Shown: piece by piece, positions 16,779 to 35,950 of the stretch
How positions within the stretch are numbered: position 1 is the stretch's first letter
How the letters are laid out: the number at the start of each line of letters is the position of its first letter
From: Candidatus Binatia bacterium
GTDB lineage: Bacteria > Chloroflexota > Limnocylindria > QHBO01
Length of the DNA stretch: 64,000 bases
NCBI GenBank assembly: GCA_035512895.1
Contig: DATKDB010000104.1
Span: 1,818 to 65,817 of the forward strand
Direction: 5' to 3'
Notes under the pieces: model-generated
Seen by the model: the letters and a program-made list of their open reading frames with translations, nothing else
Database searches by the model: none
What the model was told of the DNA's origin: nothing
Made by a program: the position numbers and the translations under genes

Positions 16779-16994
16779 CTCGCGTGGCGCGCCGCCCGTA
16801 TCCACCCGGGGACTCTTACCGCCACGCATTGGCCGATGCATGCGCGCCCACCCCTGCGACCGCCATCCACGCCGCCCCAGCTTGGCTAACCGATGCACCG
16901 GGCGCATTTCCCGCCATCCGACGGCCGTTAGAGTCACCCGGGCGATACGCGAGCAGTACGCGGCCAGTAACCGACGCCCTGCCACCATCGAGCC
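16779..16994 (+). repeat. Copy A of a roughly 200-bp structured interspersed repeat (MITE-like or sRNA-like)
   Basis: Core ...GTATCCACCCGGGGACTCTTACCGCC...GGCCGATGCATGCGCGC...CCAGCTTGGCT...CCGCCATCCGACGGCCGTTAGAGTCACCCGGGCGATAC... This core is shared with the copies at 17919, 22902, 24793 and 35760. Confidence 0.7.
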
Positions 16995-17166
16995 GGGGCA
17001 GCCGATCACCTCCGCCCACACGACCGTTGACCCGATCAATGCGCCCTCGGTGGCCGCCTGGCCCTCGTCGACCACGATCGCGTCGTACCGATGCTCCGGC
17101 AGCTGCATCAGCGCCTCGTCCAGCTCATCGCTGCAGGGTACCGGTGCGAGGCCACGGCGAGATCAG

Positions 17167-17361
17167 TCAGTCTTCCGCACTGGCTCCTTCTCGCACGAGC
17201 GCGCGGAGTGCCGCATTAACGCTCTCCGAAGTCGGGAATCGCTCAGCCACGTCCGGATCCAAGCGGACAACCGCACCCTCCGTCCGAAGCTTGCGGTGGT
17301 GCTGGCCGCGCGATCCGCCGCGGAAGTCGTACTCGTCGCGAGGGTCGTCAGGCGTGCTCAT
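17167..17361 (-). CDS. ribbon-helix-helix protein (BrnA/CopG-like antitoxin-type)
   Basis: N-terminal EYDFRGG motif plus C-terminal RHH-like DPDVAERFPTSESVNAALRAL. No cognate toxin is adjacent. Confidence 0.5.
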   Translation of the reverse strand: MSTPDDPRDEYDFRGGSRGQHHRKLRTEGAVVRLDPDVAERFPTSESVNAALRALVREGASAED

Positions 17362-17421
17362 GATCCATCCATTCGGGCGGAGTTGCCCGTTGCTCTTCGG
17401 CGGGACCCGACCGCTTGATTC

Positions 17422-17637
17422 CTACGCGTCTTGGGCGGCCACGGTGTCGGACCAGGTGCTCGGAGCCGGCACCGGCTCCCCGATCGATCGCATCATGGCC
17501 ACGTGGGCCTTGATTGCGGACCGGATGAGCTTCTCAACCTCGCCGCGCGTCTTGGCCGCCGCCACACACCCCGGCAGGTCGGGCACATAGGCTGAGTAGC
17601 CCGTCGAGGTCGTCTCGTAGATCACCGTGAACGTCAT
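17422..17637 (-). CDS. HicB-family antitoxin (N-terminal domain only)
   Basis: MTFTVIYETTSTGYSAYVPDLPGCVAAAKTRGEVEKLIRSAI is 60% identical to the HicB at 19112. The in-frame upstream extension looks like a degraded hicA. Confidence 0.7.
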   Translation of the reverse strand: MTFTVIYETTSTGYSAYVPDLPGCVAAAKTRGEVEKLIRSAIKAHVAMMRSIGEPVPAPSTWSDTVAAQDA

Positions 17638-17918
17638 GGCCTGTCCTGCGGTTCGATTCCGGCCTGCCTGAGAATACTCCGGTAGGTGCCCGTCGCAAGG
17701 TGACGGCTCGGTTTCCCCGCGATCGTCACGAGCCCCGGTCATTTGGGATGCACAAAGTGCCGATGGCTGCCGCGAGTCCGCACCCACCGCCAGCCGTGCG
17801 CTTCAACGAGCCGAATGGCATCTCGAACTTGGGCACCCACGCATCGTCACGAAGCTGCCTTATCGCGGGCTTACCGCTGCGTTACAGCGGACTGCCCAAC
17901 GTCGCATCGCTCGCGTGC

Positions 17919-18094
17919 TCGCGTGGCGCGAGGCCCGTATCCACCCGGGGACTCTACGGCCACTCATGGGCCGATGCATGCGCGCCAACCCTTGCGACCG
18001 CCATCCACGCCGCCCCAGCTTGGCTGACCGATCCACCGCCCGCATAACCCGCCATCCGACGGCCGTTAGAGTCACCCGGGCGATACGCGAGCAG
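17919..18094 (+). repeat. Copy B of the structured repeat
   Basis: About 85% identical to the copy A core. Lies immediately upstream of the kinase gene at 18137. Confidence 0.7.
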
Positions 18095-18136
18095 TCCGCC
18101 GCGGATAATCGGCGGCATGGACAGGGGCCACGCTGC

Positions 18137-19033
18137 ATGACCGATGCGCCCGACGGCGATGCCGTCGCCGCGTCGCTGGCACGCGATTGGGGCCTCCGCG
18201 CCCCGACGATCGAGCGCCATGACCGCGGGATGAACTCCAGGACCTGGATCATCACCGACGGCGCTCGCCGGTGGGTCGCCAAGGCCGTTCCCGCCGACGT
18301 CCAGCCGAGCTTCGCGGCGGGGCTCGCCGTCGCCTCCCTCGTCGATGCCGCCGGCATCCCGAGCGGTGCGCCGGAGCCGACGCGATCCGGGGCGCTGTCG
18401 GTCGTGCTCGGCCGTTGGACCCTCGCGCTGCTGCGGTTCGCCGACGGCGAGCCGCTCGTCGGGGACGACGAGCGGGAGCAGCGGCTCATCGGCCTGACGC
18501 TCGCGCGGGCGCATCGGGCACTGAGGGGGCGCGAGGTCCCGGGCGCCGAGCGATTTCATTGGATCGATGCCGAGGCGTCACACCTCGACATCGAGCCCTG
18601 GGTTCGGCCGGCCGTTCGCGCTGCCATCGGCGCCTACGACGCCATCCACCCGCATGAGCTGACGTGGGGCCTGCTCCACTCGGACCCCGCGCCGGAGGCA
18701 TTCCTGTGCGACGCGCGCACCGACCGATGCGGGCTCATTGACTGGGGCACCGCGCTCGTCGGTCCGCTCATGTACGACGTCGCGTCGGCGGTGATGTACG
18801 TGGGCGGCCGCCGATACGCCTCCACCCTGCTGGACGCCTACCTGGCCGAGCGGGTGATCCCGGCCTCGGAGGTCGAGCGCGCGCTCGAACCGATGCTCCA
18901 GCTGCGCTGGGCCGTCCAGGCCGATTACTTCGCCCGGCGCCTCGCGACCGACGACCTCACGGGGATTGCGAATTCGGACGAGAACCAGGTCGGCCTCGAC
19001 GACGCCCGTCGGGGGCTGCTCGGCTCATCCTGA
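18137..19033 (+). CDS. phosphotransferase (APH / homoserine-kinase II-like)
   Basis: LLHSDPAPEAF (HxD), IDWG and MYDVASA. I moved the start to the ATG downstream of the repeat element (MTDAPDGD). Confidence 0.75.
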   Translation: MTDAPDGDAVAASLARDWGLRAPTIERHDRGMNSRTWIITDGARRWVAKAVPADVQPSFAAGLAVASLVDAAGIPSGAPEPTRSGALSVVLGRWTLALLRFADGEPLVGDDEREQRLIGLTLARAHRALRGREVPGAERFHWIDAEASHLDIEPWVRPAVRAAIGAYDAIHPHELTWGLLHSDPAPEAFLCDARTDRCGLIDWGTALVGPLMYDVASAVMYVGGRRYASTLLDAYLAERVIPASEVERALEPMLQLRWAVQADYFARRLATDDLTGIANSDENQVGLDDARRGLLGSS

Positions 19034-19063
19034 GCGTGGGCGTCGTGGTCAATCCCTTATCCC

Positions 19064-19088
19064 GCGATCACGAAAGAGCAGTGATCGC
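19064..19088. terminator. 8-bp stem hairpin GCGATCAC-N9-GTGATCGC between convergent genes (candidate bidirectional terminator)
   Basis: Perfect inverted repeat between the kinase stop (19033) and the hicB stop (19112). No U-tract. Confidence 0.35.
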
Positions 19089-19111
19089 CCGTGGATGCGA
19101 GGGCGGCGAGG

Positions 19112-19324
19112 CTAGAGAACGTCGACGGAGCCGGACGTGGTGGTCGGCTCGGGCGGTGCCACGCCGTCCTCGCGCATGCCTTCCAGGTGAAGCTCGATGG
19201 CAGAGCGGATCCGCCGTTCGACATCGGCCCGCGTCCGGCCGGTCGCCACACATCCCGGCAGGTCCGGCACGTACGCGCCCCAATTGCGCTCGCTGCGCTC
19301 GTAGATCACCGCGTAGGTCGTCAT
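19112..19324 (-). CDS. hicB: HicB antitoxin
   Basis: MTTYAVIYERSERNWGAYVPDLPGCVATGRTRADVERRIRSAIELHLEG. ATGA overlap with hicA. Confidence 0.8.
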   Translation of the reverse strand: MTTYAVIYERSERNWGAYVPDLPGCVATGRTRADVERRIRSAIELHLEGMREDGVAPPEPTTTSGSVDVL

Positions 19325-21165: not shown

Positions 21166-22116
21166 GTGCCACCGAAGACCTCCAACCGTCGATACACGGT
21201 CTACGGCAAGGGCCGGTTGGCCGGCGCCGTCTGGGGCCACCTCGTCGGCGACGCGATCGGTGTGCCCTACGAGTTCAACCACCACATCGAGACCGTCGAG
21301 CTCCGCGGCCACGGATCGCACAATCAGCCACCCGGCACCTGGAGCGACGACGGCGCGCTCATGCTCGCCCTCCTCGACTCCCTCGTCAGCGTCGGCTTCG
21401 ACCCCGAGGACCAGGGCCGACGCGCCCTTGCCTGGGCCTATGCAGGCGCCTACACGCCCGATGGCGACGGCAGGTTCGACATCGGCGGCGCCACGCATGC
21501 GGCCCTCGAGCGGTTGCGCCGCGGCACGCCGGCCATCGATGCCGGCGGCACCGGCGAGCGCGACCAGGGCAACGGCAGCCTGATGCGCATCCTGCCGATC
21601 GCCCTCGTAGACGTTCCGGCGGATGACGCGACGCTCGTCGAGCGCGCGCACCTCGCCAGCCGCGTGACGCACGGCCACCCGAACTGCCAGGTCGCCTGCG
21701 CGCTGTACGTCCTCATCGCCCCCGAGCTGCTGCGCGGTTCAACCCAACCGGAGACGTCGCTCACCACCTCGGTCGAGCGGCTGCGCGTCGTGTACGCGGA
21801 CGATCCGGCGTTCGGATCGGTCCTGGAGGCGCTGCTGGCGCATCGGTCCAGCGTGCGCAAGCCCGGTGGAGGCTGGGTGCTCGACAGCTTCTGGTCGGCC
21901 TGGGAGGCCTTCGCGGCGAGCACCTCGTACCGCGACGCGATCGAGCGCGCGGTCACGTACGGCCACGACACCGATACGACCGCCGCCATCGCCGGCGGCC
22001 TCGCCGGCCTGCGCTGGGGCCTCGACGAGCGGACCGACGGGATCCCGCGCCAGTGGCTCACCGCCCTCCGCGGCCGCGCCATCGTGGAGGAGCTGCTCGG
22101 CCGGCTTCTTCGATGA
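21166..22116 (+). CDS. ADP-ribosylglycohydrolase family protein
   Basis: GAVWGHLVGDAIGVPYEF, SDDGALMLAL, GNGSLMRILPIAL, YGHDTDTTAAIAGGLAG. GTG start, uncertain. Confidence 0.8.
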   Translation: MPPKTSNRRYTVYGKGRLAGAVWGHLVGDAIGVPYEFNHHIETVELRGHGSHNQPPGTWSDDGALMLALLDSLVSVGFDPEDQGRRALAWAYAGAYTPDGDGRFDIGGATHAALERLRRGTPAIDAGGTGERDQGNGSLMRILPIALVDVPADDATLVERAHLASRVTHGHPNCQVACALYVLIAPELLRGSTQPETSLTTSVERLRVVYADDPAFGSVLEALLAHRSSVRKPGGGWVLDSFWSAWEAFAASTSYRDAIERAVTYGHDTDTTAAIAGGLAGLRWGLDERTDGIPRQWLTALRGRAIVEELLGRLLR

Positions 22117-22247
22117 CCGATGCTCGCTGCGACCTCGTCGGCTGCGACCGGGCGCGCGCTCGGTATCCTGACAGGGACCATCGGGTCATTCGGAGGGAGC
22201 GTCACCGATGACAGGATTCCGGTCCGAGCAAACCACGGAGTTCGACC

Positions 22248-22877
22248 ATGGCTGACCGATGGGTCTGCACAACGTGCTGGGCAGCAAACGAGGAGCAGTG
22301 GGACAAGTGCCTCCGCTGCAAGGTGCCGCGTGGCGCCAAGGCCGATCCACTGGTGGCCTCAGCAGCCACAGGGGAGCCGCAGCGATCCTGGTGGCAACGC
22401 GTTCCGATGCGATTCGCCTGGGTCGGCATCGTGGCAGTCGTGGCCGTGGTCGGAGCGCTGAGCGCGGCCTCCCGCGACGACTCGGGCGCGATCGTCGGGG
22501 CGGGCGCGCTGCAGATCGTCGACGTGCGGGTCGGGGATTGCTTCGATCTCAACGACGGATTCGACATCGAGGAGGTCGGCGAGATCCGGGCCATCCCGTG
22601 CGACGAGCCGCATGCCTTCGAGGCCTACTTCCTAACCGAACTGGCGGCGGGTTCCTACCCCTCGCGCAGTGTCTTCAACACCGCGGTGGAGGCTGCGTGC
22701 CTCCCGTCCTTCGAGACCTACGTCGGCCGCGACTACGAAACGTCGGAGCTCTACGTGACCTCGTTCGAGCCGACGCCCGAGGGCTGGCACGATGGCGACC
22801 GCAGCATCCTGTGCGTCCTCTCGACGTACGAGGCCGCGACCCCGCTGACCGGCTCCGTCCGCGACTCCGGCCGCTGA
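22248..22877 (+). CDS. septum-formation family protein with N-terminal zinc ribbon and one TM helix
   Basis: CTTCWAAN...CLRCK, VGDCFDL...IPCDEPHAFEAYF...CLPSFETYVGRDYETSELYV...ILCVL. The last 11 codons and the stop lie in repeat-derived sequence. Confidence 0.7.
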   Translation: MADRWVCTTCWAANEEQWDKCLRCKVPRGAKADPLVASAATGEPQRSWWQRVPMRFAWVGIVAVVAVVGALSAASRDDSGAIVGAGALQIVDVRVGDCFDLNDGFDIEEVGEIRAIPCDEPHAFEAYFLTELAAGSYPSRSVFNTAVEAACLPSFETYVGRDYETSELYVTSFEPTPEGWHDGDRSILCVLSTYEAATPLTGSVRDSGR

Positions 22878-22894
22878 ATCCGCTCGAGGCGGAT
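22878..22894. terminator. short hairpin ATCCGC-tcgag-GCGGAT directly after the stop
   Basis: 6-bp stem seen in the sequence. Weak. Confidence 0.25.
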
Positions 22895-22901
22895 CCTGAA
22901 T

Positions 22902-23125
22902 CGGCTCGTGGCAGGGCGTCGGTGACTGGCCGCGTACTCCTCGCTCATGACCCGTGTGACTCTAACGGCCGTCGGATGGCGGCGAATGCGGGGGTGGATC
23001 GGTCAGCCAAGCTGGGGCGGCGTGGATGGCGGTCGTAAGGGTGGGCGTGCATGCATCGGCCGATGAATCGCCGTAAGAGTCCCCCGGTGGATACGCACGC
23101 GGCTCTGACCCCGCTGACTGGCTCC
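22902..23125 (-). repeat. Copy C of the structured repeat (reverse orientation)
   Basis: GACTCTAACGGCC...GGATGGCGG...CAGCCAAGCTGGGGCGGCGTGGATGGCGG...GCATGCATCGGCC...GCCGTAAGAGTCCCCCGGTGGATAC. Both ends are shared with copy D. Confidence 0.7.
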
Positions 23126-23148
23126 ACTCCGCTCCAAGCCCTCGCGAC

Positions 23149-23793: not shown

Positions 23794-23878
23794 GTCGTGT
23801 GCAATCGTATCACACTCCCTCGTAGCCAACCGCTCCTCCTGCCGGCCGGCCCCGCGGGACCGCGCAGATCGAGGAGCG

Positions 23879-24745
23879 CTACCGCGATCCGCGATTCCCG
23901 TCGGGCCGGATCCTGACGACCTCGGTCGCGAGCTGCCTGCCCTTCAGGTCGAGCGACGTGCGCTCGAGCGACGGATCGAGGCCGGCTGCCTCGGCCGCAG
24001 CGACCGAAACGACGACCTCTCCCCGCTCCGCCTGCGACGCGAGGCGTGCCGCAACGTTGACGACATCCCCGACCGCGGTCAGCTCGACATGGGTGCCCTC
24101 GCCTACTGCGCCGAACCACGTCCGGCCGAAGTGGACGCCGGCACCGACCGGGACCCACGGCCCGCCGGGATCGGCGTGCCCCGTCGCGCGCAGGAGCGCC
24201 TTGGCGGTATCGACCGCGCGCGCCACGTACCGCTCGCCGGCGAGGAGCGGGAAGAAGAGGGCGACGAGCTCGTCACCGACGAACTTGTCGACGTACCCGT
24301 CATGGTCGAAGACGGCCTTCGTGGCCGTCGTGTAGAAGCGGTCGAGCAGCGCGTGGAACTCGCCGGGCGACATCCCCTCCGCCAGCGCGGTCGAGCCGCG
24401 GATGTCGGCGAAGAGCATCGCGCCATCCACCTCGGCACCACCGTGGTGCTTCGTGAGCATGTCGGTGCACGAGTTGCACCAGTTCGGGTTCGATTCCGAC
24501 TGGCGCTTGCCGAAGACGCGCATGAAGCGGCCTCCGCGACCGCCGAACGGCGCCGCGCACATCCGGCATCGCGGCTCGGACGGGATGCGCATGAAGACGT
24601 GGCGGCCGACCGTCTTGAACGTGTCGCCGCCCTCCGTCAGGAACTTGCGCCAGAACTCCTCGTCCCGCGTGTCCTGCGCGGGTCCCGAACTCACGCTCGC
24701 TCGCTCATCGGCGCTTCGGTCCTCCTCGATCGGTTCGATCGGCAC
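23879..24745 (-). CDS. class III adenylate/guanylate cyclase with N-terminal zinc-ribbon-like Cys cluster
   Basis: CRMCAAPF...CNSC, then AMLFADIRGSTAL, FVGDELVALF, VNVAARL. Confidence 0.8.
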   Translation of the reverse strand: MPIEPIEEDRSADERASVSSGPAQDTRDEEFWRKFLTEGGDTFKTVGRHVFMRIPSEPRCRMCAAPFGGRGGRFMRVFGKRQSESNPNWCNSCTDMLTKHHGGAEVDGAMLFADIRGSTALAEGMSPGEFHALLDRFYTTATKAVFDHDGYVDKFVGDELVALFFPLLAGERYVARAVDTAKALLRATGHADPGGPWVPVGAGVHFGRTWFGAVGEGTHVELTAVGDVVNVAARLASQAERGEVVVSVAAAEAAGLDPSLERTSLDLKGRQLATEVVRIRPDGNRGSR

Positions 24746-24792
24746 CGAACCATGATAGGACCCGGCGTCGACCGTCTCATCGCGTCGCTCCT

Positions 24793-25037
24793 CGGCTCGT
24801 GGCAGGGCGTCTGTGGCTGGCCGCGTACCGCTCGCTTATCGCCCGGGTGACTCCAACGGCCGGCGGATGGCGGCGTATGCGGCCGGTGGATCGGTCAGCC
24901 AAGCTGGGGCAGCGTGGATGGCGGTCGCAAGGGTGAACGCGCATGCATCGGCCAATGAGTGGCCGTAAGAGTCCCCCGGTGGATACGCACGCGGCCCTGA
25001 CCCCGCTGATCGGCTCCGTCCGCGACTCCGGCCGCTG
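24793..25037 (-). repeat. Copy D of the structured repeat
   Basis: About 90% identical to copy C. The 3' flank reproduces the last 35 nt (including the stop) of the gene at 22248-22877. Confidence 0.7.
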
Positions 25038-25050
25038 ACCAGGCGGCGTC

Positions 25051-25206: not shown

Positions 25207-25596
25207 TCACGCCTGCCGGCGCAGCACGGCCCACAGGATGAGCCCGGACCCGATGATCCCGACGAGCGGCAAGCCGATGTTCAACGGGAAGTCAGCCACG
25301 GGGTTCTCGTAATAGGCGAACATCCAGACGCCGACGAGAAGCGCGAACAGGCTGCCGGCCATGAGGACGGCCGCGATCCCCCACGCCAGCCCGCGCGCCC
25401 AGGTCTCGCCCGTTCGCCAGCCGAGGAGCAGGGGCGCCGTCACGACGCCGAGGGCGTAGCCCGCGAACACGATGAGCGACCCGGGATCGGCGAACGCCGA
25501 GCCCATCGCCAGCGCCAGCAAAGTAATGAGGAGCGGGCCGAACGCCAGGACGGCGGGCCGGGCGAGGACTCGGGTCATTGAGATCTGCATCATCAT
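25207..25596 (-). CDS. small polytopic membrane protein
   Basis: 129 aa, four hydrophobic helices. Confidence 0.6.
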   Translation of the reverse strand: MMMQISMTRVLARPAVLAFGPLLITLLALAMGSAFADPGSLIVFAGYALGVVTAPLLLGWRTGETWARGLAWGIAAVLMAGSLFALLVGVWMFAYYENPVADFPLNIGLPLVGIIGSGLILWAVLRRQA

Positions 25597-28328: not shown

Positions 28329-29370
28329 GCTCGAGCAACGAGGGTCGGCCGCTGTAGCCCTCGGTCAGCGCGGCCCCGAGATCGGTGTGCGGCGCCGTGC
28401 CCGCGATCGCCACCGTGACGCCGGCGAGGCGAACGAGGTACGTCGTCGTCTCGTACAGGAGGCCGGAGTGGCCGACGAACCGGTGGTCGCCGATGCGCAG
28501 CAGCTGCGCGCCCTCGCCGTAGAGATGGCCGCTGCGGAAGTCGAGCATCCGACGCAGCGACGGGCCCGAGAGGACGGCCCCGCCATAGAGCGCGTGGCCC
28601 CATCGCGCGAGCTCGCTCGGCCGCGAGACCATGGCACCCGAGGTCCAGAAGGCGGTCGACCAGGCCGCGGGCAGCTGCGGATCGGCCGCGGTCAGGAGTC
28701 GAGTGTGCTCGAGGCCGAGCGGGCCGGTGAACCGCGCCTGGAGCTCCTCGCCGAACGAACGGCCGGTGACGACCTCGATGATGAGCCCGAGCAGGTAGTA
28801 GTTCGTGTTCGAGTACGCGTAGCCGGTCCCCGGCGCGAAGTACGCCGGGCCGATCGGATGGAGGACGGCATTCGAGCTGAGCGTCGCTCCCGGCGCCCCG
28901 TGCAGCACCTCCTTCGCCGGGCGGTACAGATCGGCGATCCCGCTCGTGTGGTTGAGGAGCTGGCGCACCGTCGTGCCGCGGACGAGCGCGACGTTCGGCA
29001 GGTACGCGGCGGTGGGGGCGTCGAGCTGGATGCGTCCCTCGTCGACGAGGGCCAGGACGATGGCCGCCGTGAACGTCTTCGTGACGCTGCCGATCATGAG
29101 CGGGTCGTCGATCATAACGAGCCTGCCGTCGGTATGGCGTCCGGCGGCGCCCGACCACTGGCGACCGTCGGCGGTGACGACCGAGATCGACATGCCGGGC
29201 GCGCCGCTATTCGCCTGCGCGTCGCGAAGGGCCTCCCTGAGCTGGCTCTCGAGGTCCACGTCGACCGCGAAGGCGGGCGTCGGACCGAGGAACGAGGGGA
29301 CGGCGACGATGGCCGCGATCAACGCGGCGACGAGGAGGCGGCAAGGCGCGTCGAAGCAGAGCTTGCGCAA
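28306..29370 (-). CDS. serine hydrolase (beta-lactamase / DD-peptidase family, class C fold)
   Basis: SVTKTF (SxxK), YSNTNY. The signal peptide start is probably a TTG at 29370 with GGAG upstream; the ORF extends to 29505. Confidence 0.75.
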   Translation of the reverse strand: MRKLCFDAPCRLLVAALIAAIVAVPSFLGPTPAFAVDVDLESQLREALRDAQANSGAPGMSISVVTADGRQWSGAAGRHTDGRLVMIDDPLMIGSVTKTFTAAIVLALVDEGRIQLDAPTAAYLPNVALVRGTTVRQLLNHTSGIADLYRPAKEVLHGAPGATLSSNAVLHPIGPAYFAPGTGYAYSNTNYYLLGLIIEVVTGRSFGEELQARFTGPLGLEHTRLLTAADPQLPAAWSTAFWTSGAMVSRPSELARWGHALYGGAVLSGPSLRRMLDFRSGHLYGEGAQLLRIGDHRFVGHSGLLYETTTYLVRLAGVTVAIAGTAPHTDLGAALTEGYSGRPSLLELIGRLAG

Positions 29371-29494
29371 GGGAGGAACACTCCGTGTGCGGTGATGTGT
29401 TGACGTGGATCCGCACACTCGGGAAGGGTGATCTCGGGCCCCCGTGCAGCGATGCATATAGACCAGCATTGCTGCATGTGCTACGGTATATGCG

Positions 29495-29716
29495 ATGCGC
29501 CGCACGTCAATCCTACTCGACCCCGGACTTTTGGCCGAGCTGGAACGGATCGCTCACCGCGAGGACCGGCCGACGGCCCACGTCATCCGCGAGGCGCTCG
29601 ACCGCTACGTGGCGGCCCAGGCGGCCGAGCAGCGCGCGCTCCCCGGCTTCGTGGGGCTCGCAACGGGGCCGGGAACTGACGCGCTGCCGGCGGACGCGGC
29701 CGAGCCCGGGGAGTGA
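29495..29716 (+). CDS. RHH antitoxin (VapB/CopG-like)
   Basis: MRRTSILLDPGLLAELERIAHREDRPTAHVIREALDRYV. Confidence 0.7.
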   Translation: MRRTSILLDPGLLAELERIAHREDRPTAHVIREALDRYVAAQAAEQRALPGFVGLATGPGTDALPADAAEPGE

Positions 29717-30135
29717 CCGCCGTCATCGACGCGCGCATCCTGTACGCCCTCGTCGACAACGCTGACAGCATCCACGATCGGGCCGTCGCCGCTGTGCAGG
29801 GCGAGACCGAGGCGATCATCGTGCCGCAGGCCATCCTGCCGGAGATCTGCTACCTCATCGCCTCGCGACTCGGCGCCGCCCAGGAGGCGGCATTCATCCG
29901 CTACCTTGCCGACTCGGACTGGCGCCTCGAGGCTCTGAATGCACAGGACGTCTCACGCGTCATCGCGCTCATGTCCGAGCACGGGACGGCCGGCATCGGA
30001 TTCGTGCATGCCGCCGTCGCCGCCGTCGCGGAGCGCATGGGCGCGACCCGCATCTACACGCTGAACCGCCGGCACTTCGAGGCGATCCGCCCGAGCCACG
30101 TCAGCCGCTTCGAGCTCCTGCCCGATCCCGACTGA
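29713..30135 (+). CDS. vapC: VapC PIN-domain toxin
   Basis: MTAVIDARILYALVDNADSIHDRA. 4-nt overlap with the antitoxin. Confidence 0.8.
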   Translation: MTAVIDARILYALVDNADSIHDRAVAAVQGETEAIIVPQAILPEICYLIASRLGAAQEAAFIRYLADSDWRLEALNAQDVSRVIALMSEHGTAGIGFVHAAVAAVAERMGATRIYTLNRRHFEAIRPSHVSRFELLPDPD

Positions 30136-30148
30136 TCTGCCCGGCGCG

Positions 30149-31063
30149 TTACGAGCAGCGGTGGTTCACGTCGAGATCGTTCTCGACCCACTGCACCATG
30201 GCCAGCTCGCCACCGTTGAAGGCCTCGTCGTCGTCACAGCGACGCCGAGCATCGTCGAGATCGCGCGCGCCGGCATGCCAGGCCGGGTGGTCGGCGAAGG
30301 CCTGCGTGCCACCGGTCACCATCCACCACAGCAGCGGCGTGGAGTAGAACCCGATCTCGGCCACCTCCATCGACTTGAGGTAGTCGACGGCGCCCTGGAG
30401 GGCGGCGACGTTGAGGGACCGATCGAGGCGCCACGAGTTGGCGATCTCCACGTCGAGCCACCACGTCCGGTCGCCCGGGACGCGCTCGGCGCCCGGCGAC
30501 GCCCATCCGAGCGCGATGAACGCCTCGAGGGCGGTGCGGTACGAGTCGGCGGCGGCGTTCCAGCCGTAGACGTACGCGCAATCGGACGTATCGGTTTCGG
30601 AGAAGGGCGACGTGCTGCACGCGCGTGGCGCCTCCTGCCCGGTCGGCCAGAAGCTGGAGATCTCCGGGCCGGGGTTGCCGGTGTTGATGTACAGGTCGGC
30701 ATCGGCGCCGGCCCACTCGAGCAGGCTCGGGTGGTCGCCACCCGGCCCGAGGCACGGGTTCGGAAGGTGCACGCGTCCACCATTCACGCCGACGATGGCG
30801 AAGGCGAACGCGTCCGGCAGCGCGTCGCCGCACTGCGGATACGAGACGTCGTAGCCGATCTCGACAGCAGGCGTGGGAGCCGGCTTCGGGGTGGGAGTCG
30901 GCTGCGGCCGGACGGGACGCGGGGTGGGCTGCGGGTCGATCGGGTCGAGCGGCTCGACGCCAGCGACCGGCGCGGCGGCGGTTCCGAGCAGCACGAAAGC
31001 GCCGAGCGCCATGACGAGGACGCGACGAGGCAGACTGGATGTACGGAAAACGGACAGATGCAT
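30149..31063 (-). CDS. secreted glycoside-hydrolase-like protein (GH25/DUF1906-type), Pro/Thr-rich linker
   Basis: Signal peptide MHLSVFRTSSLPRRVLVMALGAFVLLGTAAAPVAG. GYDVSYPQCG motif. Confidence 0.5.
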   Translation of the reverse strand: MHLSVFRTSSLPRRVLVMALGAFVLLGTAAAPVAGVEPLDPIDPQPTPRPVRPQPTPTPKPAPTPAVEIGYDVSYPQCGDALPDAFAFAIVGVNGGRVHLPNPCLGPGGDHPSLLEWAGADADLYINTGNPGPEISSFWPTGQEAPRACSTSPFSETDTSDCAYVYGWNAAADSYRTALEAFIALGWASPGAERVPGDRTWWLDVEIANSWRLDRSLNVAALQGAVDYLKSMEVAEIGFYSTPLLWWMVTGGTQAFADHPAWHAGARDLDDARRRCDDDEAFNGGELAMVQWVENDLDVNHRCS

Positions 31064-31161
31064 CGGGTTTGGGAACACCCTACCGCGATCGGCGACCGAC
31101 CGCAATGACCCGCGTGGCCGGCGGGTACCATCCGCGAGTTCATTTCCCGCAGGAGAACGTC

Positions 31162-31524
31162 ATGGCCAAGCTCCTCGTGCACCTGACCGCCGGCCCGCAC
31201 GACCCGACCCGCGCCGCCCTCGCCTTGCTCGTCGCGCGGACCGCCGCGGCCGGCGGGCACGAGGTGTCCGTCTTCCTCGCCGGCGACTCGGTCGCCTACC
31301 TGCGCGACCCGATCATGGACGCCGCGCAGGGCATCGGGACCGGCAGCGTTCGGGAGCACTACACGGCGCTCGCGGCAGCCGGCGTGCGCGTCTTCGCGTC
31401 GGGCATGTCGAGCAAGGCCCGCGGCGTCGACGCCGATGCGACCGGCGGCAAGCCGGTCGAGTTCGCGCCACCGGACAAGCTCGTGGAGCTCATCTTCGAG
31501 GCGGACCGCGTCGTCACGTACTGA
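31162..31524 (+). CDS. DsrE/DsrF-like family protein
   Basis: MAKLLVHLTAGPHDPTRAALALLVARTAAAGGHEVSVFLAGDSV. GGAGAA upstream of the start. Confidence 0.65.
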   Translation: MAKLLVHLTAGPHDPTRAALALLVARTAAAGGHEVSVFLAGDSVAYLRDPIMDAAQGIGTGSVREHYTALAAAGVRVFASGMSSKARGVDADATGGKPVEFAPPDKLVELIFEADRVVTY

Positions 31525-31595
31525 GGCTTCCGTCTTGCGGGGCTGACGGGCGCGGGCGTATCGTTCGGCCCTGCCCGGCGGAAGGAGATCACGAG

Positions 31596-33620
31596 CTGTT
31601 CGAGCCGCTCGAATTCGTCGCCCACGGCGCGACCGCCATCCTGGCCACATGGCTGGGCCTGCTCGTCGTGACCCGGGCGCGCCGGACGCCGGGCGCACCG
31701 ATCTTCGGGTTCCTCTGTTTCCTGCTCGTCACGTGGTGCGTCGCGATCATCATCCAGCGGCTCGGCCCGGCGGAGAGCATCATTCAGCCGGTCAACCTGC
31801 TCGAGGATGCCGCCGCCTTCCTCCTCGTGCCGGCGACGACCCACATCGCCATCTCGGTCGCCGTGGAGGGGCGCCGGTCGGCCTTCGCCAGCGTCGTCCT
31901 GGCGGCCGGGTACACGCTCGCGGCCCTCGCGATCGCGCAGGCGGCGCTCGACCCGGCGCACCCGATCCAGTTCACCCACCCCGCCTTCTCGCCACTCGGC
32001 ATCCCCGCGCCGGTCGTGGCGTGGGCGTTCGCCATCGCCCGCCTCGCCATCTGGTCGGCGGGCATCGGCTACCTCGTCGCCGCCCTGCGCCAGGCGGGAG
32101 CGGACCGCGCGCGCCGACGGCAGCTGGCGGTCGCGACGGCCACGGTCGTCCTCGGCGTCATCGGCGGGATGCTGCGCATCGTTCCCGAGGAGCTCGGCGG
32201 GCCGCGCTGGATCGGTGTTTCGCTCATCGCGATCGCGACCGTGCTGGCGACGTACGCCGTCGTGGCGCAGCACGTCTTCCTGGCGCCCGAGGTCGCCGGC
32301 CGTGCCGTGCGCTGGTCGCTCGTCGCCGGCCTGGGCGTCGTCGTCTACGTCGCGACCCTCGTCCTGCTCGAGGAGGCGACGGCCCGGCTGCTCGGAATCG
32401 ACTTCCCGATCATCACGCCGCTCGCCATCGTCGTAACCCTCGCCCTCTTCGAGCCGATCTCCGACCTCGTTCGGACACGGACCGCGGAGAGCCCGCGGGC
32501 CGCGGCACGCGATCGGTTCCTCGGCGCGCTCGGCATGGGCTCGATGCCTCGGCAGGAGCCCGACGTCGCGCTCGGCCCTGCCCTCGACCGGCTCGTCCGC
32601 ACGTTCGAGATCACCGGAGCCGAGCTCGTCGTCGATGGCGCGCCGGCCGCGTCGAGCGGGACCGTGGATCCCGACGACCCCCTCGCCGTGCGCCTGACGC
32701 TGACCCACGACGACGCGCCCTTCGGCCACGCCGTCTTCGGCCGCAAGCAGAGCGGGCTCTCGTTCACGCCCCCCGACCTCGAGGCGCTCGAGCTGGCCGT
32801 CTCGTATCTCGGCTCCGGCCTGCGCCTCGCCGAGCAAGGCGAGGAGCAGGCCGCGGCGCTCCAGCAGCTGCGGGCCGAGCGCGCCGTGCACGAGTCTCGC
32901 GGGACGGCGCTGAGCGAGGCCCTCGCCGACGCGGCGACGCCACCCCAAGGCCTGCGTGTCTACGCGCTCGGCTCACTGCGCGCCGAGCTGGACGGCGAGC
33001 CGGTGCGGCGATGGGGTGGCGAGAAGGCCGGCTCGCGGCAGGCCGAGGCGATCTTCGCGTTCCTCTTCGATCGCGGTGAGCGCGGGGTGGCGAAGGACGA
33101 GATCCTCGAGCTCGTCTGGCCGGACGTCGACCTCGCTCGCGCCGACGTCGCGTTCCATCGCACGATGCTCGGCCTGCGATCCGTGCTGCGACCCGCACGG
33201 CGACACCGCGGCACGGAGGGCGTCATCAGCTTCGCGAACGATCGGTATCGCCTCGAGCCGTCCGTCGTGGCGTGGAGCGACGTCGACAACTTCGAGCGTC
33301 TCGTGGCCGAGTCGATCGACGCCGAACCGGACGCGGCGGTCCGCCTCCTCGAGCAGGCCCGCGCGCTCTACCGCGGCGACTATCTTGACGACTGCCCCTT
33401 CTACGGGGACAGCGCGCCGGTCGAAGATCGGCGAACCGACCTGCGCCAGCGGTACGTCGATGTCCTCGTCGAGCTCGGCGAGCACTACGCCGGACGCGGT
33501 AACCGCACGGCTGCGGCGGCCTGCCTGCGCCAGGCACAGAGCACGGCCGACGAGGACCTGCCCCGCGTCACCGAGGCACTCGGGCGGCTGACCCTTCCGG
33601 CGGTTGCCGACTCCGCCTGA
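31596..33620 (+). CDS. membrane-anchored (about 8 TM) regulator with C-terminal SARP-type winged-helix plus BTAD domain
   Basis: C-terminus LRVYALGSLRAELDGEPVRRWGGEKAGSRQAEAIFAFL...ILELVWPD...RALYRGDYLDD. The start is uncertain. Confidence 0.6.
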   Translation: MFEPLEFVAHGATAILATWLGLLVVTRARRTPGAPIFGFLCFLLVTWCVAIIIQRLGPAESIIQPVNLLEDAAAFLLVPATTHIAISVAVEGRRSAFASVVLAAGYTLAALAIAQAALDPAHPIQFTHPAFSPLGIPAPVVAWAFAIARLAIWSAGIGYLVAALRQAGADRARRRQLAVATATVVLGVIGGMLRIVPEELGGPRWIGVSLIAIATVLATYAVVAQHVFLAPEVAGRAVRWSLVAGLGVVVYVATLVLLEEATARLLGIDFPIITPLAIVVTLALFEPISDLVRTRTAESPRAAARDRFLGALGMGSMPRQEPDVALGPALDRLVRTFEITGAELVVDGAPAASSGTVDPDDPLAVRLTLTHDDAPFGHAVFGRKQSGLSFTPPDLEALELAVSYLGSGLRLAEQGEEQAAALQQLRAERAVHESRGTALSEALADAATPPQGLRVYALGSLRAELDGEPVRRWGGEKAGSRQAEAIFAFLFDRGERGVAKDEILELVWPDVDLARADVAFHRTMLGLRSVLRPARRHRGTEGVISFANDRYRLEPSVVAWSDVDNFERLVAESIDAEPDAAVRLLEQARALYRGDYLDDCPFYGDSAPVEDRRTDLRQRYVDVLVELGEHYAGRGNRTAAAACLRQAQSTADEDLPRVTEALGRLTLPAVADSA

Positions 33621-33697
33621 CACGAAGAATGACCGGCGCCTCCACCGTGGGAGACGCCGGTCGATCGGTGTGGTCCGGGCGTGAGAGCGCCCTCGAG

Positions 33698-34537
33698 CTA
33701 CGGAGTGGGCTCGCGGGGCGGCGTGCTCGGCTCCGGGTTCGTGGCCGAGCCGCCACCTGGCGGGGAGCCCGTCGCGGGGGCGGTTGCCGCCGTGCCGGTG
33801 CCAGATGAGCCGGTCGACGACTGCGACTGGTACCGGGCGACCTTCTGGCTGGCCGCACGGCCCTTCTCGTACCAGCCGGCCGTGATCTGGGCGGCGGTCT
33901 GCTGCCCACCGAGGCCGAAGGCGAGGCCGACGGCCAGGACGACGAGCGCCACGAGGCCGATGAAGAGCGTGTTGACGACCGTCGCGGCGATGCCGAGCTG
34001 GTTGACGGCCGCGATGATCGCGAACGCGAGGATCGCGTAGTACGACACGCTTCCGAGCAGCTCGGAGTTGCTGAAGCCCATCTGACTTGTCGAGCCGCGC
34101 ACGAGACCGCCGACGAAGCGGGCGATGAGCGCCCCGATGACGATGATCGCGATCGCGACGACGAGGTTCGGCAGCCAGAGCAGGATCGCGTTGATGATCG
34201 AGCTGATCTGGTTCAAGCCGAGGATCGAGGCCGCGGCCTGGATCGCGATCAGGCGGATGAACCACTTGATGATCTCGGCCACGATCGCGCTCGCGGTCCA
34301 GCTCGATCCGCTGCGCTCGATGAACGAGCTGATCCCGGTTGTCTGCGCCGCACGCTCGAAGCCGACCATCTTCAGGCCGCGCTCGACGAGGCCGGCGAGG
34401 AGGCCGGCGAGGAACCAGCCGATGATGAGGATGAGGATCGCGCCGACGAGCGCGGGAAGGAACCCGAGGAAGTTCTGAAGGGCCTCGGTGGCCGACACCA
34501 TGACGGCGTCGCCCCAATTCTGGACGGTGTTTTCCAT
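33698..34537 (-). CDS. membrane protein with conserved TM-helix repeats (MscS-N-terminal-like), Ser/Thr/Pro-rich tail
   Basis: AGGAGAA SD. MENTVQNWGDAVMVSATEALQNFLGFLPALVGAILILIIGWFLAG. Confidence 0.6.
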   Translation of the reverse strand: MENTVQNWGDAVMVSATEALQNFLGFLPALVGAILILIIGWFLAGLLAGLVERGLKMVGFERAAQTTGISSFIERSGSSWTASAIVAEIIKWFIRLIAIQAAASILGLNQISSIINAILLWLPNLVVAIAIIVIGALIARFVGGLVRGSTSQMGFSNSELLGSVSYYAILAFAIIAAVNQLGIAATVVNTLFIGLVALVVLAVGLAFGLGGQQTAAQITAGWYEKGRAASQKVARYQSQSSTGSSGTGTAATAPATGSPPGGGSATNPEPSTPPREPTP

Positions 34538-34568
34538 GTTGGGCGTTCTCCTGTGACGGGCGTCTAGC

Positions 34569-34991
34569 CTACCGGGGTTGCATGTCACGTGCCCCGTCGA
34601 TTGCGCGCCGGACGCTCTCGAGCAGGCGGTCGACGTTGAGCGGCTTGCGCAGGACGGCGACGGCCTCGAGCGTCTCGCTCGGCCGCTGCCAGTACGCCGA
34701 GAGCACGATGACCGGGATCCTCGTGAGCTCGTGCCGTCGCAGCATCTGCGACCGCAGCGTGAACCCGGACATCCCCGGCATGAACAGGTCGGTGATCACG
34801 AGGTCTGGCAGGCGCTCGACCATCTCGGTGAGCGCCAGACCTCCCGACGCGACGGCGATGACTTCGTAGCCCTCCGCCTCGAGGACCTCCCGCAGCATGG
34901 CGCGCATCTCGACCGAGTCATCGGCGACGAGGACGACGGGGCGCTGGCCGGGCGGCCGTACCTCGACTGGCTGGGCTTCGATGTGCTGCAT
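34569..34991 (-). CDS. single-domain response regulator (CheY-like receiver)
   Basis: VVLVADDSVEMR...DLVITDLFMPGMSG...VIVLSAY. Confidence 0.75.
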   Translation of the reverse strand: MQHIEAQPVEVRPPGQRPVVLVADDSVEMRAMLREVLEAEGYEVIAVASGGLALTEMVERLPDLVITDLFMPGMSGFTLRSQMLRRHELTRIPVIVLSAYWQRPSETLEAVAVLRKPLNVDRLLESVRRAIDGARDMQPR

Positions 34992-35051
34992 CGGTGGATC
35001 TCTGGGTGGCGCGGTTGCCCGCGACAACGCAATCTCCATGCCGCGTCCGTC

Positions 35052-35714
35052 ATGATGTGGAGCATGCCGCCGTCCTGCTGCACGCCCGACTACGACGCCG
35101 CGTTCGACGCGCGATCCGCGCGACGGCAGGCGCTGGCCTATCGCCGATCCGGCGCCGGGGGGAGCACGCTGCGCCTCCTGAACGCGATCCGCGAGACCGA
35201 GGTCGCGGGCGCAGCGGTGCTGGACATCGGCGGCGGCATCGGCGTCATCGGTCTCGAGCTGCTGGCCGCCGGAGCCGCCTCGCTGACGAGCGTCGACGCC
35301 TCGCGGCCGTCAGTGGCCGTCGCCAAGGGGGAGTTGCAGCGCGCTGGCTTGGCGGACCGCGCAACCGTGCGGCATGGCGACTTCGTTGAGCTCGCCGGCG
35401 AGATCGAGGCGGCCGACGTCGTGACGCTCGACCGCGTCGTGTGCTGCTACGGCGATTGGCGAGCGCTCGTGGACGCATCAGTCTCGCATGCCCGGCGAGT
35501 CATCGGCCTCGTCTATCCGAACGAGCGGTGGTGGATGCGCGCCGGCATCGGCATCGGCAACCTCATGCTGCGGCTCGTCGGCCAGTCGTTCCGTGGCTAC
35601 GTGCACCCGGAGCGCGCGATCGACGATCGGATCCGGCGTGCGGGCTTCGAGCGGCGCACGCATCACCGCGGGTGGCTGTGGCAGACCGTGCTGTACGAGC
35701 GGGCGGCGCGCTGA
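35052..35714 (+). CDS. class I SAM-dependent methyltransferase
   Basis: VLDIGGGIGVIGLELL glycine-rich SAM motif. Confidence 0.7.
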   Translation: MMWSMPPSCCTPDYDAAFDARSARRQALAYRRSGAGGSTLRLLNAIRETEVAGAAVLDIGGGIGVIGLELLAAGAASLTSVDASRPSVAVAKGELQRAGLADRATVRHGDFVELAGEIEAADVVTLDRVVCCYGDWRALVDASVSHARRVIGLVYPNERWWMRAGIGIGNLMLRLVGQSFRGYVHPERAIDDRIRRAGFERRTHHRGWLWQTVLYERAAR

Positions 35715-35759
35715 GTCCGGCGCGCTAACGGCGATTGACGAGCACTCATGGAGGCATCG

Positions 35760-35950
35760 GTCTCGCATGCCCGGGGGCTCAAGCCGCGTGCCGCATGCCT
35801 CTGGGGACTCTAACGGCCTGCGGATGGCGGAATATGCGGCCGGTGCATCGGTTCGCCAAGGTTAGGCATCGTCGTTGACGGTGGCAGGGATCGGCGCGCA
35901 TGCATCGGCCATTACGTGGCTGTAAGAGTCACGGGGTGGATGCGGGACGA
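35760..35950 (-). repeat. Copy E of the structured repeat (most divergent)
   Basis: GGACTCTAACGGCCTGCGGATGGCGG...GCGCATGCATCGGCC...GCTGTAAGAGTCACGGGGTGGATGCGG. Confidence 0.55.

What the first reader, a model, noticed from the sequence alone, without database searches (positions are those of the whole stretch)
16779..35950. Five copies of a roughly 200-bp structured interspersed repeat (MITE-like or small-RNA family)
The copies sit at 16779-16994 and 17919-18094 (forward) and at 22902-23125, 24793-25037 and 35760-35950 (reverse). Their cores are 80-90% identical.

The element is an imperfect long inverted repeat. GTATCCACCCGGGGACTCT pairs with AGAGTCACCCGGGCGATAC, and there are internal GC-rich blocks CCGCCATCC and GCATGCATCGGCC.

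One substitution in the divergent copy E (G to T in the GCYGTAAGAGTC arm) preserves wobble pairing, which suggests selection on RNA structure.

All copies are intergenic or lie at gene ends, and four of the five sit inside the toxin-antitoxin-rich accessory block.

Five copies in 64 kb is a very high density.
Basis: seen in the sequence. Interest (0 to 1): 0.7.

Follow-up and report, generated by a model that had tools for sequence, protein, structure and literature searches.

The report
Palindromic intergenic repeat, soil Chloroflexota genome
Five copies of a non-coding, hairpin-forming repeat (about 160 nt of core, about 270 nt in all) lie between genes in a 19-kb stretch of an uncultured soil bacterium's genome; it behaves like the small parasitic mobile repeats common in bacteria, but this family is undescribed and how it moves is unknown.

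Summary
Exactly five copies exist in the window. A-D are 85-92% identical over the core; E is 69-78%. None are expected by chance.

Each copy has a ~160-nt imperfect hairpin core plus 25-70 nt of partly shared flanks. None is coding. No Rfam family matches, no promoter or terminator accompanies the copies, and the 64 kb holds no transposase, integrase or reverse transcriptase.

The contig is a soil MAG labelled Binatia whose relatives are Chloroflexota/Limnocylindria. Only three further copies turned up in very large public collections, each at an unrelated locus.

A 93-97% identical syntenic contig lacks copy E precisely. The missing 267 bp is bounded by a CTGA direct repeat. This is the best evidence for mobility.

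Covariation is weak: 8 pairs show compensatory change in 8 related sequences. The G-rich strand folds much better than the C-rich strand (5-13 G·U pairs against 1-3).

Several features do not fit a classical MITE. The indel ends lie outside the inverted repeat. The interior is better conserved than the arms. The flanks carry fragments of neighbouring genes.

Verdict: a new, rare, lineage-restricted palindromic repeat of the MITE/REPIN/ERIC kind. Its mechanism is unresolved and its interest is modest.

The parts
16746..17030 (-). Copy A. The strand given is the G-rich strand that folds best. The hairpin core is 16795-16955. It lies directly after the intrinsic terminator (16731-16765) of gene 16222-16716(+). 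On its other side it abuts an unidentified open reading frame on the minus strand (about 16990-17165).
   Evidence: nhmmer E 7e-78; CM 165.9 bits; terminator; translation of the neighbouring frame
17884..18154 (-). Copy B. The core is 17934-18093. It sits between the start of the hicA pseudogene (-) and the APH-type kinase gene (+), a region of divergent transcription.
   Evidence: nhmmer E 4e-72; CM 178.7 bits; Pfam; translation
22889..23146 (+). Copy C. The core is 22938-23097. It sits between the convergent ends of the Septum_form gene (ends at 22877, +) and the PIN toxin gene (ends at 23149, -).
   Evidence: nhmmer E 6e-75; CM 146.1 bits; Pfam; an independent Logan contig, L040, is 100% identical over 22108-23022
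24756..25045 (+). Copy D. The core is 24829-24989. It sits between a membrane-protein gene (25207-25596, -) and the start of the cyclase gene (23879-24745, -). Its tail, 24985-25038, is 91% identical to the 3' end of the Septum_form gene.
   Evidence: nhmmer E 2e-81; CM 166.2 bits
35715..35981 (+). Copy E, delimited by the indel against syntenic contig L034. The core is 35786-35946. It sits between the convergent methyltransferase gene (ends at 35714, +) and the AAA ATPase gene (ends at 35996, -). CTGA is repeated at both ends of the segment.
   Evidence: blastn and alignment with L034; CM 143 bits
22824..22877 (+). The genuine 3' end of the Septum_form gene. The tails of copies D and C, and in part the tail of L024, resemble this 54-nt segment.
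   Evidence: the repeat finder D13; blastn-short; the Pfam match runs to residue 205 of 209
35449..35502 (+). An internal segment of the methyltransferase gene. A degenerate copy of it (35728-35781, 85-89% identical, with a frame-breaking indel) forms the 5' flank of copy E, inside the 267-bp indel.
   Evidence: the repeat finder D14

Best explanation
This is a lineage-restricted, non-autonomous palindromic DNA repeat of an uncultured soil Chloroflexota (Limnocylindria-like) bacterium. It belongs to the same general kind as bacterial MITEs, REPINs and ERIC/Correia-type elements.

Shown:
- The unit is a ~160-nt imperfect hairpin plus short flanks, about 265-290 bp in all.
- It cannot code for a protein.
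- It sits only between genes and occurs in both orientations.
- It is present or absent between near-identical genomes.
- It turns up at unrelated loci in other genomes.

Inferred:
- It is copied or moved by an enzyme encoded elsewhere in the genome. Insertions survive only where they do no harm, such as 3' ends of convergent genes, just after terminators, and among toxin-antitoxin modules and gene remnants.
- The G-rich strand alone forms a fully paired hairpin, with many G·U/G·T pairs. The interior is better conserved than the arms. I therefore think the recognised form is a single strand, as for REP/REPIN and IS200/IS605 ends, rather than double-stranded terminal inverted repeats.
- Once inserted, it is probably co-transcribed in neighbours' untranslated regions, where the hairpin could stabilise or end transcripts. 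That would be a side effect, not its reason for existing.
For: - Five copies are present against none expected.
- Single-base indels between copies break every reading frame, so it is non-coding.
- A 267-bp segment equal to copy E is missing from L034. L034 is 93-97% identical on both sides and has only 10 bp between the two convergent genes. CTGA is repeated at the segment's ends.
- Three more copies exist at unrelated loci: L003/L042 between meaB and an hbd-like gene, L024 between convergent genes, and L037.
- Distribution is patchy. One true hit came from 185,579 species genomes and one from 241 million metagenome records. None came from phages, plasmids or viral contigs. No copy was found in the relatives L034, L035, L036, L038, L039 and L041.
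- All 8 copies are intergenic, and 3 of them lie between convergent gene ends.
- Orientation relative to neighbouring genes is mixed, and no promoter or terminator is attached.
- No Rfam family matches.
- The two strands differ. Minimum free energy is -70 to -89 kcal/mol with 5-13 G·U pairs on the G-rich strand, against -47 to -70 with 1-3 G·U pairs on the other. Z-scores are -2.6 against -1.3.
- Copy E keeps 10 of 13 outer-stem pairs through two double changes and one wobble.
- Logan contig L040 ends inside copy C, as repeats do to assemblies.
Against: - No transposase, integrase, Y1/HUH enzyme or reverse transcriptase is present anywhere in the 64 kb.
- The one indel that can be measured ends ~70 and ~36 nt outside the inverted repeat. 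Its 4-bp repeat could equally be deletion microhomology, so the direction of the event is unknown.
- The copies are clustered within 19 kb, four of them within 8.3 kb. C/D and A/B share extended flanks, so some copies may come from local duplication rather than transposition.
- The flanks contain fragments of neighbouring genes, which a clean transposition would not produce.
- The family is extremely rare in public data. The six-frame protein trick and an exhaustive HMMER scan found only one further copy.
- Identity between genomes is about the same as identity among A-D. This could mean sequence constraint rather than neutral decay.
Confidence: 0.5

Rival explanations
1. It is a family of structured non-coding RNA genes or cis-acting RNA domains. 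The G-rich strand is transcribed, and its ~125-160-nt hairpin is the functional product. It might be a protein-sequestering or regulatory RNA: four GGAU motifs occur in direct orientation on that strand.
For: - The G-rich strand folds far better than its complement, with conserved G·U pairs such as 99-106 and 58-120 in 8 of 8 copies.
- The interior (GACTC...GAGTC) is more conserved between genomes than the arms. L003, at ~71% overall identity, keeps long invariant blocks.
- Eight pairs have changes on both sides, and only 6 of 500 shuffles reach that number.
- Identity between genomes roughly equals identity within the genome.
Against: - No promoter-like or terminator-like signal accompanies any copy.
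- Orientation relative to neighbouring genes is inconsistent.
- Paired and unpaired columns vary about equally: 44% against 55% overall, and 37% against 47% in the interior.
- The RNAalifold covariation term is unfavourable, at +2.05 to +2.36.
- The best inner fold differs from copy to copy.
- The G-strand z-score is only -2.6.
- The invariant block GCATGCATCGGCC was the search anchor, so its conservation in L003 and L024 reflects how they were found.
- One copy is dispensable between near-identical genomes.
- Distribution is patchy and rare.
Confidence: 0.15
2. It is not mobile in itself. An ancestral intergenic hairpin, for example a terminator-like palindrome, has been spread by local segmental duplications and illegitimate recombination in a rearrangement-prone block. 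Long palindromes act as break points that drag neighbouring gene fragments with them.
For: - Four copies lie within 8.3 kb.
- C and D share 226 nt, and a second 57-nt segment recurs at similar spacing, 1892 against 1921 bp.
- Gene fragments flank the copies: a Septum_form 3' end and a methyltransferase interior, and a 79-aa ORF fragment.
- The block is full of pseudogenes and remnants.
- The window and L034 differ by several gene-sized indels, not only by E.
Against: - The genes between C and D and those after D are unrelated: PIN against a membrane protein, with no alignment. There is therefore no simple tandem duplication.
- Copies in L003, L024 and L037 lie in unrelated contexts in other genomes and are 71-88% identical to A-D.
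- Copy E is 11 kb away and divergent.
- Copies occur in both orientations.
Confidence: 0.15
3. It is a single-stranded recombination site in the manner of integron attC sites. An unknown recombinase would use it to shuffle gene cassettes, including toxin-antitoxin pairs. A-B and C-D would then be cassette boundaries.
For: - The hairpin is strand-asymmetric, with imperfect pairing and bulges.
- The direct-oriented pairs A/B and C/D bracket 0.9-kb and 1.7-kb segments that contain toxin-antitoxin genes.
- The copies show the 85-92% similarity seen among attC sites of sedentary integrons (this comparison rests on my own knowledge).
- GTTAGAG and CTCTTAC motifs resemble the R' and R'' boxes.
Against: - No integrase or other recombinase is present in 64 kb.
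- Orientation is mixed: two copies one way and three the other.
- The R-like boxes are internal, not at the hairpin base.
- The core, at ~160 nt, exceeds the 57-141 nt range of attC sites.
- The homologous PIN-antitoxin module in L035 and L041 ends exactly at the two genes and carries no hairpin.
- The copies in L003, L024 and L037 are solitary.
Confidence: 0.06

Closest known systems
Bacterial MITEs and long palindromic intergenic repeats (Correia elements of Neisseria, ERIC/IRU of enterobacteria, bcr1 of the Bacillus cereus group, RUP of pneumococcus). Named from my own knowledge, not from a database hit.
   Same: It is 100-300 bp and non-coding, and it folds into one long imperfect hairpin. 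It is intergenic, occurs in both orientations, is often at 3' ends of genes, and is present or absent between close relatives. No transposase lies inside it.
   Different: No family member matches by sequence or in Rfam. The indel boundaries do not coincide with the inverted repeat. No TA-type or other constant target duplication is shown. The interior is more conserved than the termini. The flanks carry fragments of neighbouring genes. Few copies are known.
REP/REPIN elements mobilised by RAYT (Y1/HUH) transposases, and the related IS200/IS605-derived palindrome-associated elements (PATEs)
   Same: The hairpin is strand-specific with G·T/G·U pairs. Conservation is of the structure rather than of terminal repeats. 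It sits between convergent genes and after terminators. There is no clear target duplication. In E, the same tetranucleotide (CTGA) appears next to one end and at the other end, as in IS200/IS605-type insertion.
   Different: REPs are 20-40 nt and REPINs about 70-120 nt, whereas this core is about 160 nt. The conserved GTAG-type 5' tetranucleotide was not identified. No RAYT or TnpA gene is present in the window. The hundreds of copies per genome typical of REPINs are not shown.
Integron attC sites (for example the Vibrio cholerae repeats)
   Same: It is an imperfect, strand-asymmetric hairpin. Copies are 85-92% similar and interspersed with small gene modules that include toxin-antitoxin pairs.
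   Different: Orientation is mixed. No intI gene is present. The R''/R' boxes are not at the base of the hairpin. It is too long. The copies in other genomes are solitary.

Membership tests
MITE (miniature inverted-repeat transposable element) | Small (under ~600 bp) and without coding capacity | tested here: met
   The unit is 265-290 bp. Single-base indels between copies break all frames. Pfam finds nothing in the ORFs that overlap it.
MITE (miniature inverted-repeat transposable element) | Terminal inverted repeats that form the ends of the inserted unit | tested here: not met
   A 26-30-bp imperfect inverted repeat exists. However, the only measurable insertion (E against L034) ends ~70 and ~36 nt outside it. 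L003 and L024 lack a recognisable 5' outer arm.
MITE (miniature inverted-repeat transposable element) | Target-site duplication of constant length flanking each copy | tested here: inconclusive
   Only one filled/empty pair is available. It shows a 4-bp CTGA direct repeat, which could equally be deletion microhomology or stop-codon context. No common flanking repeat is visible at A-D.
MITE (miniature inverted-repeat transposable element) | A related autonomous insertion sequence with matching ends and a transposase | tested here: not met
   None is present in the 64-kb window or in about 130 kb of related loci. The rest of the source genome could not be searched.
MITE (miniature inverted-repeat transposable element) | Multiple dispersed copies and insertion polymorphism | tested here: met
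   Five copies are present here and three at unrelated loci elsewhere. E is absent from the 93-97% identical L034. Caveat: four of the five local copies lie within 8.3 kb.
REP/REPIN-RAYT | Short REP palindromes (20-40 nt), paired in inverted orientation, with a conserved 5' tetranucleotide | tested here: not met
   The hairpin is a single ~160-nt structure with a conserved non-repetitive interior. No REP doublet is present.
REP/REPIN-RAYT | A RAYT (Y1 transposase) gene in the genome, usually flanked by the repeats | not testable with these tools
   None is present in the window (Pfam). The other contigs of the MAG were not retrievable: searches returned 'not on record'.
Integron attC | R''(RYYYAAC)/R'(GTTRRRY) at the base of a 57-141-nt hairpin, arrays in one orientation, and an intI gene nearby | tested here: not met
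   The GTTAGAG/CTCTTAC motifs lie inside the stem. The core is ~160 nt. Orientation is 2 minus and 3 plus. No integrase is present.
Any Rfam RNA family | A covariance-model match | tested here: not met
   There are no matches at gathering score in the window. Nothing falls on the copies at E up to 10.
Structured RNA (generic) | Significant covariation supporting a conserved fold | tested here: inconclusive
   82% of cells are paired, against 34-42% when partners are slid. Eight pairs change on both sides, matched by 6 of 500 shuffles. The covariation score is 0.096 against 0.075, matched by 11 of 500 shuffles. The alternative fold does worse. There are only 8 related sequences, and the alifold covariation term is unfavourable.

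The most novel reading that the evidence does not exclude
The conserved ~125-160-nt G-strand hairpin may be the working part of an undescribed kind of mobile element in Chloroflexota. It would act as single-stranded DNA or RNA rather than through terminal inverted repeats. It would also carry short pieces of adjacent genes and integrate next to homologous genes. Two observations prompt this. Copy C has the arrangement 54-mer, then hairpin, then 54-mer. Copy E has a methyltransferase-like flank and sits beside a methyltransferase gene. That would amount to a hairpin-guided, homology-assisted insertion mechanism, or a mobile structured RNA.
Probability: 0.1. Interest if true: 0.7.

Novelty: new member of a known kind. 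Interest (0 to 1): 0.3.

Why it matters
Limnocylindria are abundant, uncultured soil Chloroflexota. I found no literature on their repeats.

A defined repeat family, with a covariance model, is useful in several practical ways:
- It explains why assemblies break at these points.
- It marks rearrangement-prone islands rich in toxin-antitoxin genes.
- It provides a strain-level marker.

The odd features would matter more if they hold up in complete genomes. These are the strand-asymmetric hairpin, the interior being better conserved than the ends, and the captured fragments of neighbouring genes. Together they would point to a single-strand-based mobilisation route in a phylum where none has been described.

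As it stands, this is one more lineage-specific palindromic repeat.

Tried and rejected
Searches that found nothing or almost nothing:
- Rfam at gathering score and at permissive E-values found nothing on the copies.
- The anchor pattern gave 13 and 20 loci in the genome and metagenome collections. Only L003 and L024 are real, and the rest are chance.
- Two patterns in the viral contigs gave nothing. Distant blastn against plasmids and phages gave nothing.
- Translating the repeat in four open frames and searching 5.8 billion protein clusters for spurious ORFs gave one new copy, P0039/L037. An exhaustive HMMER scan of 1.84 billion representatives with one frame gave only an irrelevant weak hit.

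Attempts to find more empty sites:
- Exact look-ups of window proteins failed.
- Homologues of the helicase at 84% identity (L038, L039) share only that gene with the window.
- Homologues of the PIN module (L035, L041) end at the gene borders.
- The meaB-hbd site occupied in L003 has no orthologous junction in the window.

Ideas rejected:
- The repeat is the 3' part of a vapC or helicase gene. Pfam finds no match for ORF 16671-17108, and tblastn against UvrD-like proteins finds nothing.
- C and D are a tandem duplication of a toxin-antitoxin block. The genes are unrelated.
- A diversity-generating retroelement with template and variable repeats. The 54-mer mismatches are not adenine-specific, and no reverse transcriptase is present.
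- The covariance-model hit at 50346-50455. It lies inside a GNAT-type ORF and is chance.
- A CsrA-type sponge reading of the four GGAU motifs. Only one of them is unpaired in the predicted fold, and this was not pursued.

Full report

Yes. The repeat finder recovers all the claimed pairs in direct and inverted orientation. An alignment of the five stretches shows long invariant runs.

An nhmmer profile built from them finds exactly five places in the 64 kb, with E-values from 1e-66 to 1e-81. The only other hits are two short flank fragments at E near 1.

The anchor GCATGCATCGGCC-N8-20-AGAGTC occurs five times, against 0.00 expected in shuffles. A covariance model built later places 161-nt cores at 16795-16955(-), 17934-18093(-), 22938-23097(+), 24829-24989(+) and 35786-35946(+), at 143-179 bits. 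The next-best window hit scores 25 bits and lies inside a GNAT-type ORF.

Core identity is 85-92% among A-D and 69-78% for E.

**2. Anatomy**

The core is one long imperfect hairpin. The outer arms are GTATCGCCCGGGTGACTCTAACGGCC and GGCCGTAAGAGTCCCCGGGTGGATAC, written on the G-rich strand.

The two strands are very unequal:
- The G-rich strand is + for C, D and E and - for A and B. It folds at -70 to -89 kcal/mol with 5-13 G·U pairs.
- The complement folds at -47 to -70 kcal/mol with 1-3 G·U pairs. Only its outer ~30 bp pair robustly.
- Against dinucleotide shuffles, the z-scores are -2.6 for the G strand and -1.3 for the C strand. The fold is therefore better than chance, but not dramatically so.

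Homology extends beyond the hairpin:
- A, C and D share a ~45-nt leader, GGCTCG..TGGCAGGGCGTCGGT.ACTGGCCGCGTAC.
- A and B share one tail.
- C, D and partly L024 share another tail.

Single-base indels between copies break every frame, so the element is not coding. No sigma-70-like promoter or intrinsic terminator accompanies the copies. Copy A simply follows the terminator of gene 16222-16716.

**3. Context**

The contig is a 68,458-bp TPA MAG contig labelled 'Candidatus Binatia bacterium'. Its RecB-like nuclease/helicase and other proteins have their best relatives in Chloroflexota/Limnocylindria MAGs. It is not an actinobacterium.

Genes around the copies:
- Phd/YafQ.
- An unknown gene, then copy A.
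- A small ORF, then hicB and a hicA pseudogene with an in-frame TGA, then copy B.
- An APH-type kinase, an ADP-ribosylglycohydrolase and a Septum_form gene, then copy C.
- A PIN gene with its antitoxin and a cyclase, then copy D.
- A membrane protein, followed further on by an MFS transporter, a beta-lactamase-fold protein, a second PIN gene, a BTAD regulator, an MscS-like protein and a methyltransferase, then copy E.
- An AAA ATPase.

No transposase, integrase, Y1/HUH enzyme or reverse transcriptase is found anywhere in the window.

C and E lie between convergent gene ends. A lies after a terminator. B lies in a divergent promoter region. D lies between two genes on the same strand. Orientation relative to neighbouring transcription is not consistent.

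**4. Relatives elsewhere**

- The anchor pattern gave one true hit among 185,579 species genomes. This is L003, a Limnocylindria MAG, where the copy sits between meaB and an hbd-like gene.
- It gave one true hit among 241 million metagenome records. This is L024, where the copy sits between convergent genes.
- Translating the repeat in its four mostly open frames and searching the protein collection for spurious ORFs gave one more copy, L037.
- An exhaustive HMMER scan with one frame added nothing.
- Viral contigs, plasmids and phages gave nothing.
- Extending L003's contig to 11.8 kb showed just that one copy.
- The related contigs L034, L035, L036, L038, L039 and L041, about 87 kb together, have none.

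The family is therefore rare, patchy and restricted to this lineage. The window holds an unusual local concentration. L024 and L037 are 81-88% identical to A-D, about the same as A-D are to each other. L003 is ~71% identical.

**5. Evidence for gain or loss**

L034 (GCA_964552085.1) is collinear with window 28311-47133 at 93-97% identity. In L034, the methyltransferase and AAA genes end 10 bp apart. In the window, 267 bp (35715-35981) lie between them, and this segment is copy E.

The junctions read as follows:
- L034: GCGCTGA|ACCGAGCG.
- Window: GCGCTGA|GTCCGG...GGTCCACTGA|ACCGAACG.

CTGA is repeated at both ends of the segment. This is a precise presence/absence polymorphism, but its direction is not known. 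It could be an insertion with a 4-bp duplication, an IS200/IS605-style insertion beside a tetranucleotide, or a deletion by microhomology.

The same two contigs also differ by several gene-sized indels, so the region is generally in flux.

The Logan contig L040 is 100% identical to 22108-23022 and stops inside copy C, as assemblies do at repeats.

L035 carries the PIN-antitoxin pair at 86% identity. It appears to have a Septum_form-like gene end 175 nt beyond the PIN stop, with an unrelated spacer where C would be. That rests on a 19-nt match.

**6. Structure conservation**

RNAalifold on eight copies predicts 46-49 pairs. Only 5-6 show a compensatory change, and the covariation term is unfavourable.

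Counting pairs for the long-hairpin model gave these results:
- 82% of cells are paired, against 34-42% when partners are slid.
- 8 pairs change on both sides, a number reached by 6 of 500 shuffles.
- The covariation score is 0.096 against 0.075, reached by 11 of 500 shuffles.

An alternative inner fold does worse, and the best inner fold differs between copies. Paired and unpaired columns vary about equally.

With eight related sequences, this is suggestive at most. The tool's own calibration says that unconstrained related sequences can reach such values.

Copy E keeps 10 of 13 outer-stem pairs through two double changes and one wobble.

**7. Things that do not fit a textbook MITE**

- The E indel ends ~70 and ~36 nt outside the inverted repeat.
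- The interior (GACTC...GAGTC) is better conserved between genomes than the outer arms. L003 and L024 lack a recognisable 5' outer arm.
- The flanks contain gene fragments. E's 5' flank (35728-35781) is an 85-89% identical, frame-broken copy of methyltransferase interior 35449-35502. The tails of D (91% identical), C and partly L024 resemble the genuine 3' end of the Septum_form gene (22824-22877), which lies just upstream of C. The Pfam match for that gene runs to residue 205 of 209.
- Integration of a circle through the 54-mer would explain the order at C (54-mer, leader, hairpin, 54-mer') but not the order at E.
- C and D are not a simple tandem duplication, because the genes that follow them are unrelated.

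**8. Interpretation**

The best-supported reading (confidence about 0.5) is a non-autonomous, lineage-specific palindromic repeat of the MITE/REPIN/ERIC kind. It would be moved or copied by an enzyme encoded elsewhere and tolerated only in harmless intergenic sites.

The strand asymmetry and the conserved interior incline me to a single-strand-recognised element of the REP/REPIN or IS200/IS605-PATE type, rather than a double-stranded TIR element. That step is inference.

The rivals are:
- A functional structured RNA (0.15).
- Passive spread by local duplication around a fragile palindrome (0.15).
- An attC-like recombination site (0.06).

None is excluded. Each has a stated refutation test.

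**9. Novelty and score**

No sequence, Rfam or literature match was found, so the family itself is new. The kind of element, a palindromic intergenic repeat, is well known in bacteria.

I rate it a new member of a known kind, with interest 0.3. There is roughly a 10% chance that the odd features reflect a mechanistically new hairpin-based element.

Noticed in passing
window 252-295 and 1172-1215: A 44-nt perfect direct repeat, TTGCGCCACTCCTCTATTTGTAACTGCTGCGGTTACAAATAAGG. It is AT-rich for this genome and has an internal palindrome, TTTGTAAC..GTTACAAA. The two copies bracket the unknown gene 396-1184(-). They could be operator or attachment sites (D16).
   Followed up: no
window 17634-17840 (-): hicA, upstream of hicB, has an in-frame TGA at codon 34 (VGAQV...FVHPK*PGLV...), so it is a pseudogene or a recoded gene.
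   Followed up: partly
window 23836-23891 and 25756-25812: A 57-nt segment is repeated at 91% identity. The second copy lies inside the 79-aa ORF 25663-25902(+). The first copy is a stray fragment between the antitoxin gene and the cyclase gene.
   Followed up: partly
window 16990-17165 (-): An open frame next to copy A reads ...LDEALMQLPEHRYDAIVVDEGQAATEGALIG.... The DEGQ stretch resembles a helicase motif, but Pfam and tblastn against UvrD-like proteins give no match. It is probably a gene remnant.
   Followed up: partly
window 25992-26486 (+), repeats at 26058-26165: An ORF encodes a repetitive Lys/Gly/Ala-rich protein with 21- and 33-nt tandem units (AGKTAGQVGRTAGKVG...). It has no Pfam match.
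   Followed up: no
whole window: NCBI labels the contig 'Candidatus Binatia bacterium'. However, its syntenic contigs and its closest protein homologues are Chloroflexota/Limnocylindria. The taxonomic label or the binning looks doubtful.
   Followed up: partly
window 28311-47133 against L034: The two contigs are 93-97% identical but differ by several gene-sized indels. A cupredoxin gene, and an HTH_31 gene with a response-regulator gene, are present only in L034. Window 37574-39995 has no DNA-level match in L034.
   Followed up: no
L035 5412-5584: The spacer beyond the PIN gene, where the window has copy C, contains its own ~34-nt imperfect direct repeat: GGCCAGGATGTGGCTACTTGTACCAGCGGCGAAC and GGCCAAGAAGTGGCCGTTTGTCCCAGCAGCGGAC. 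It is unrelated to the repeat studied here.
   Followed up: no
window 17509-17592 and 19193-19276: An 84-nt match at 74% identity links hicB to a second hicB-like stretch near 19.1-19.4 kb. This suggests a paralogous antitoxin gene or remnant.
   Followed up: no
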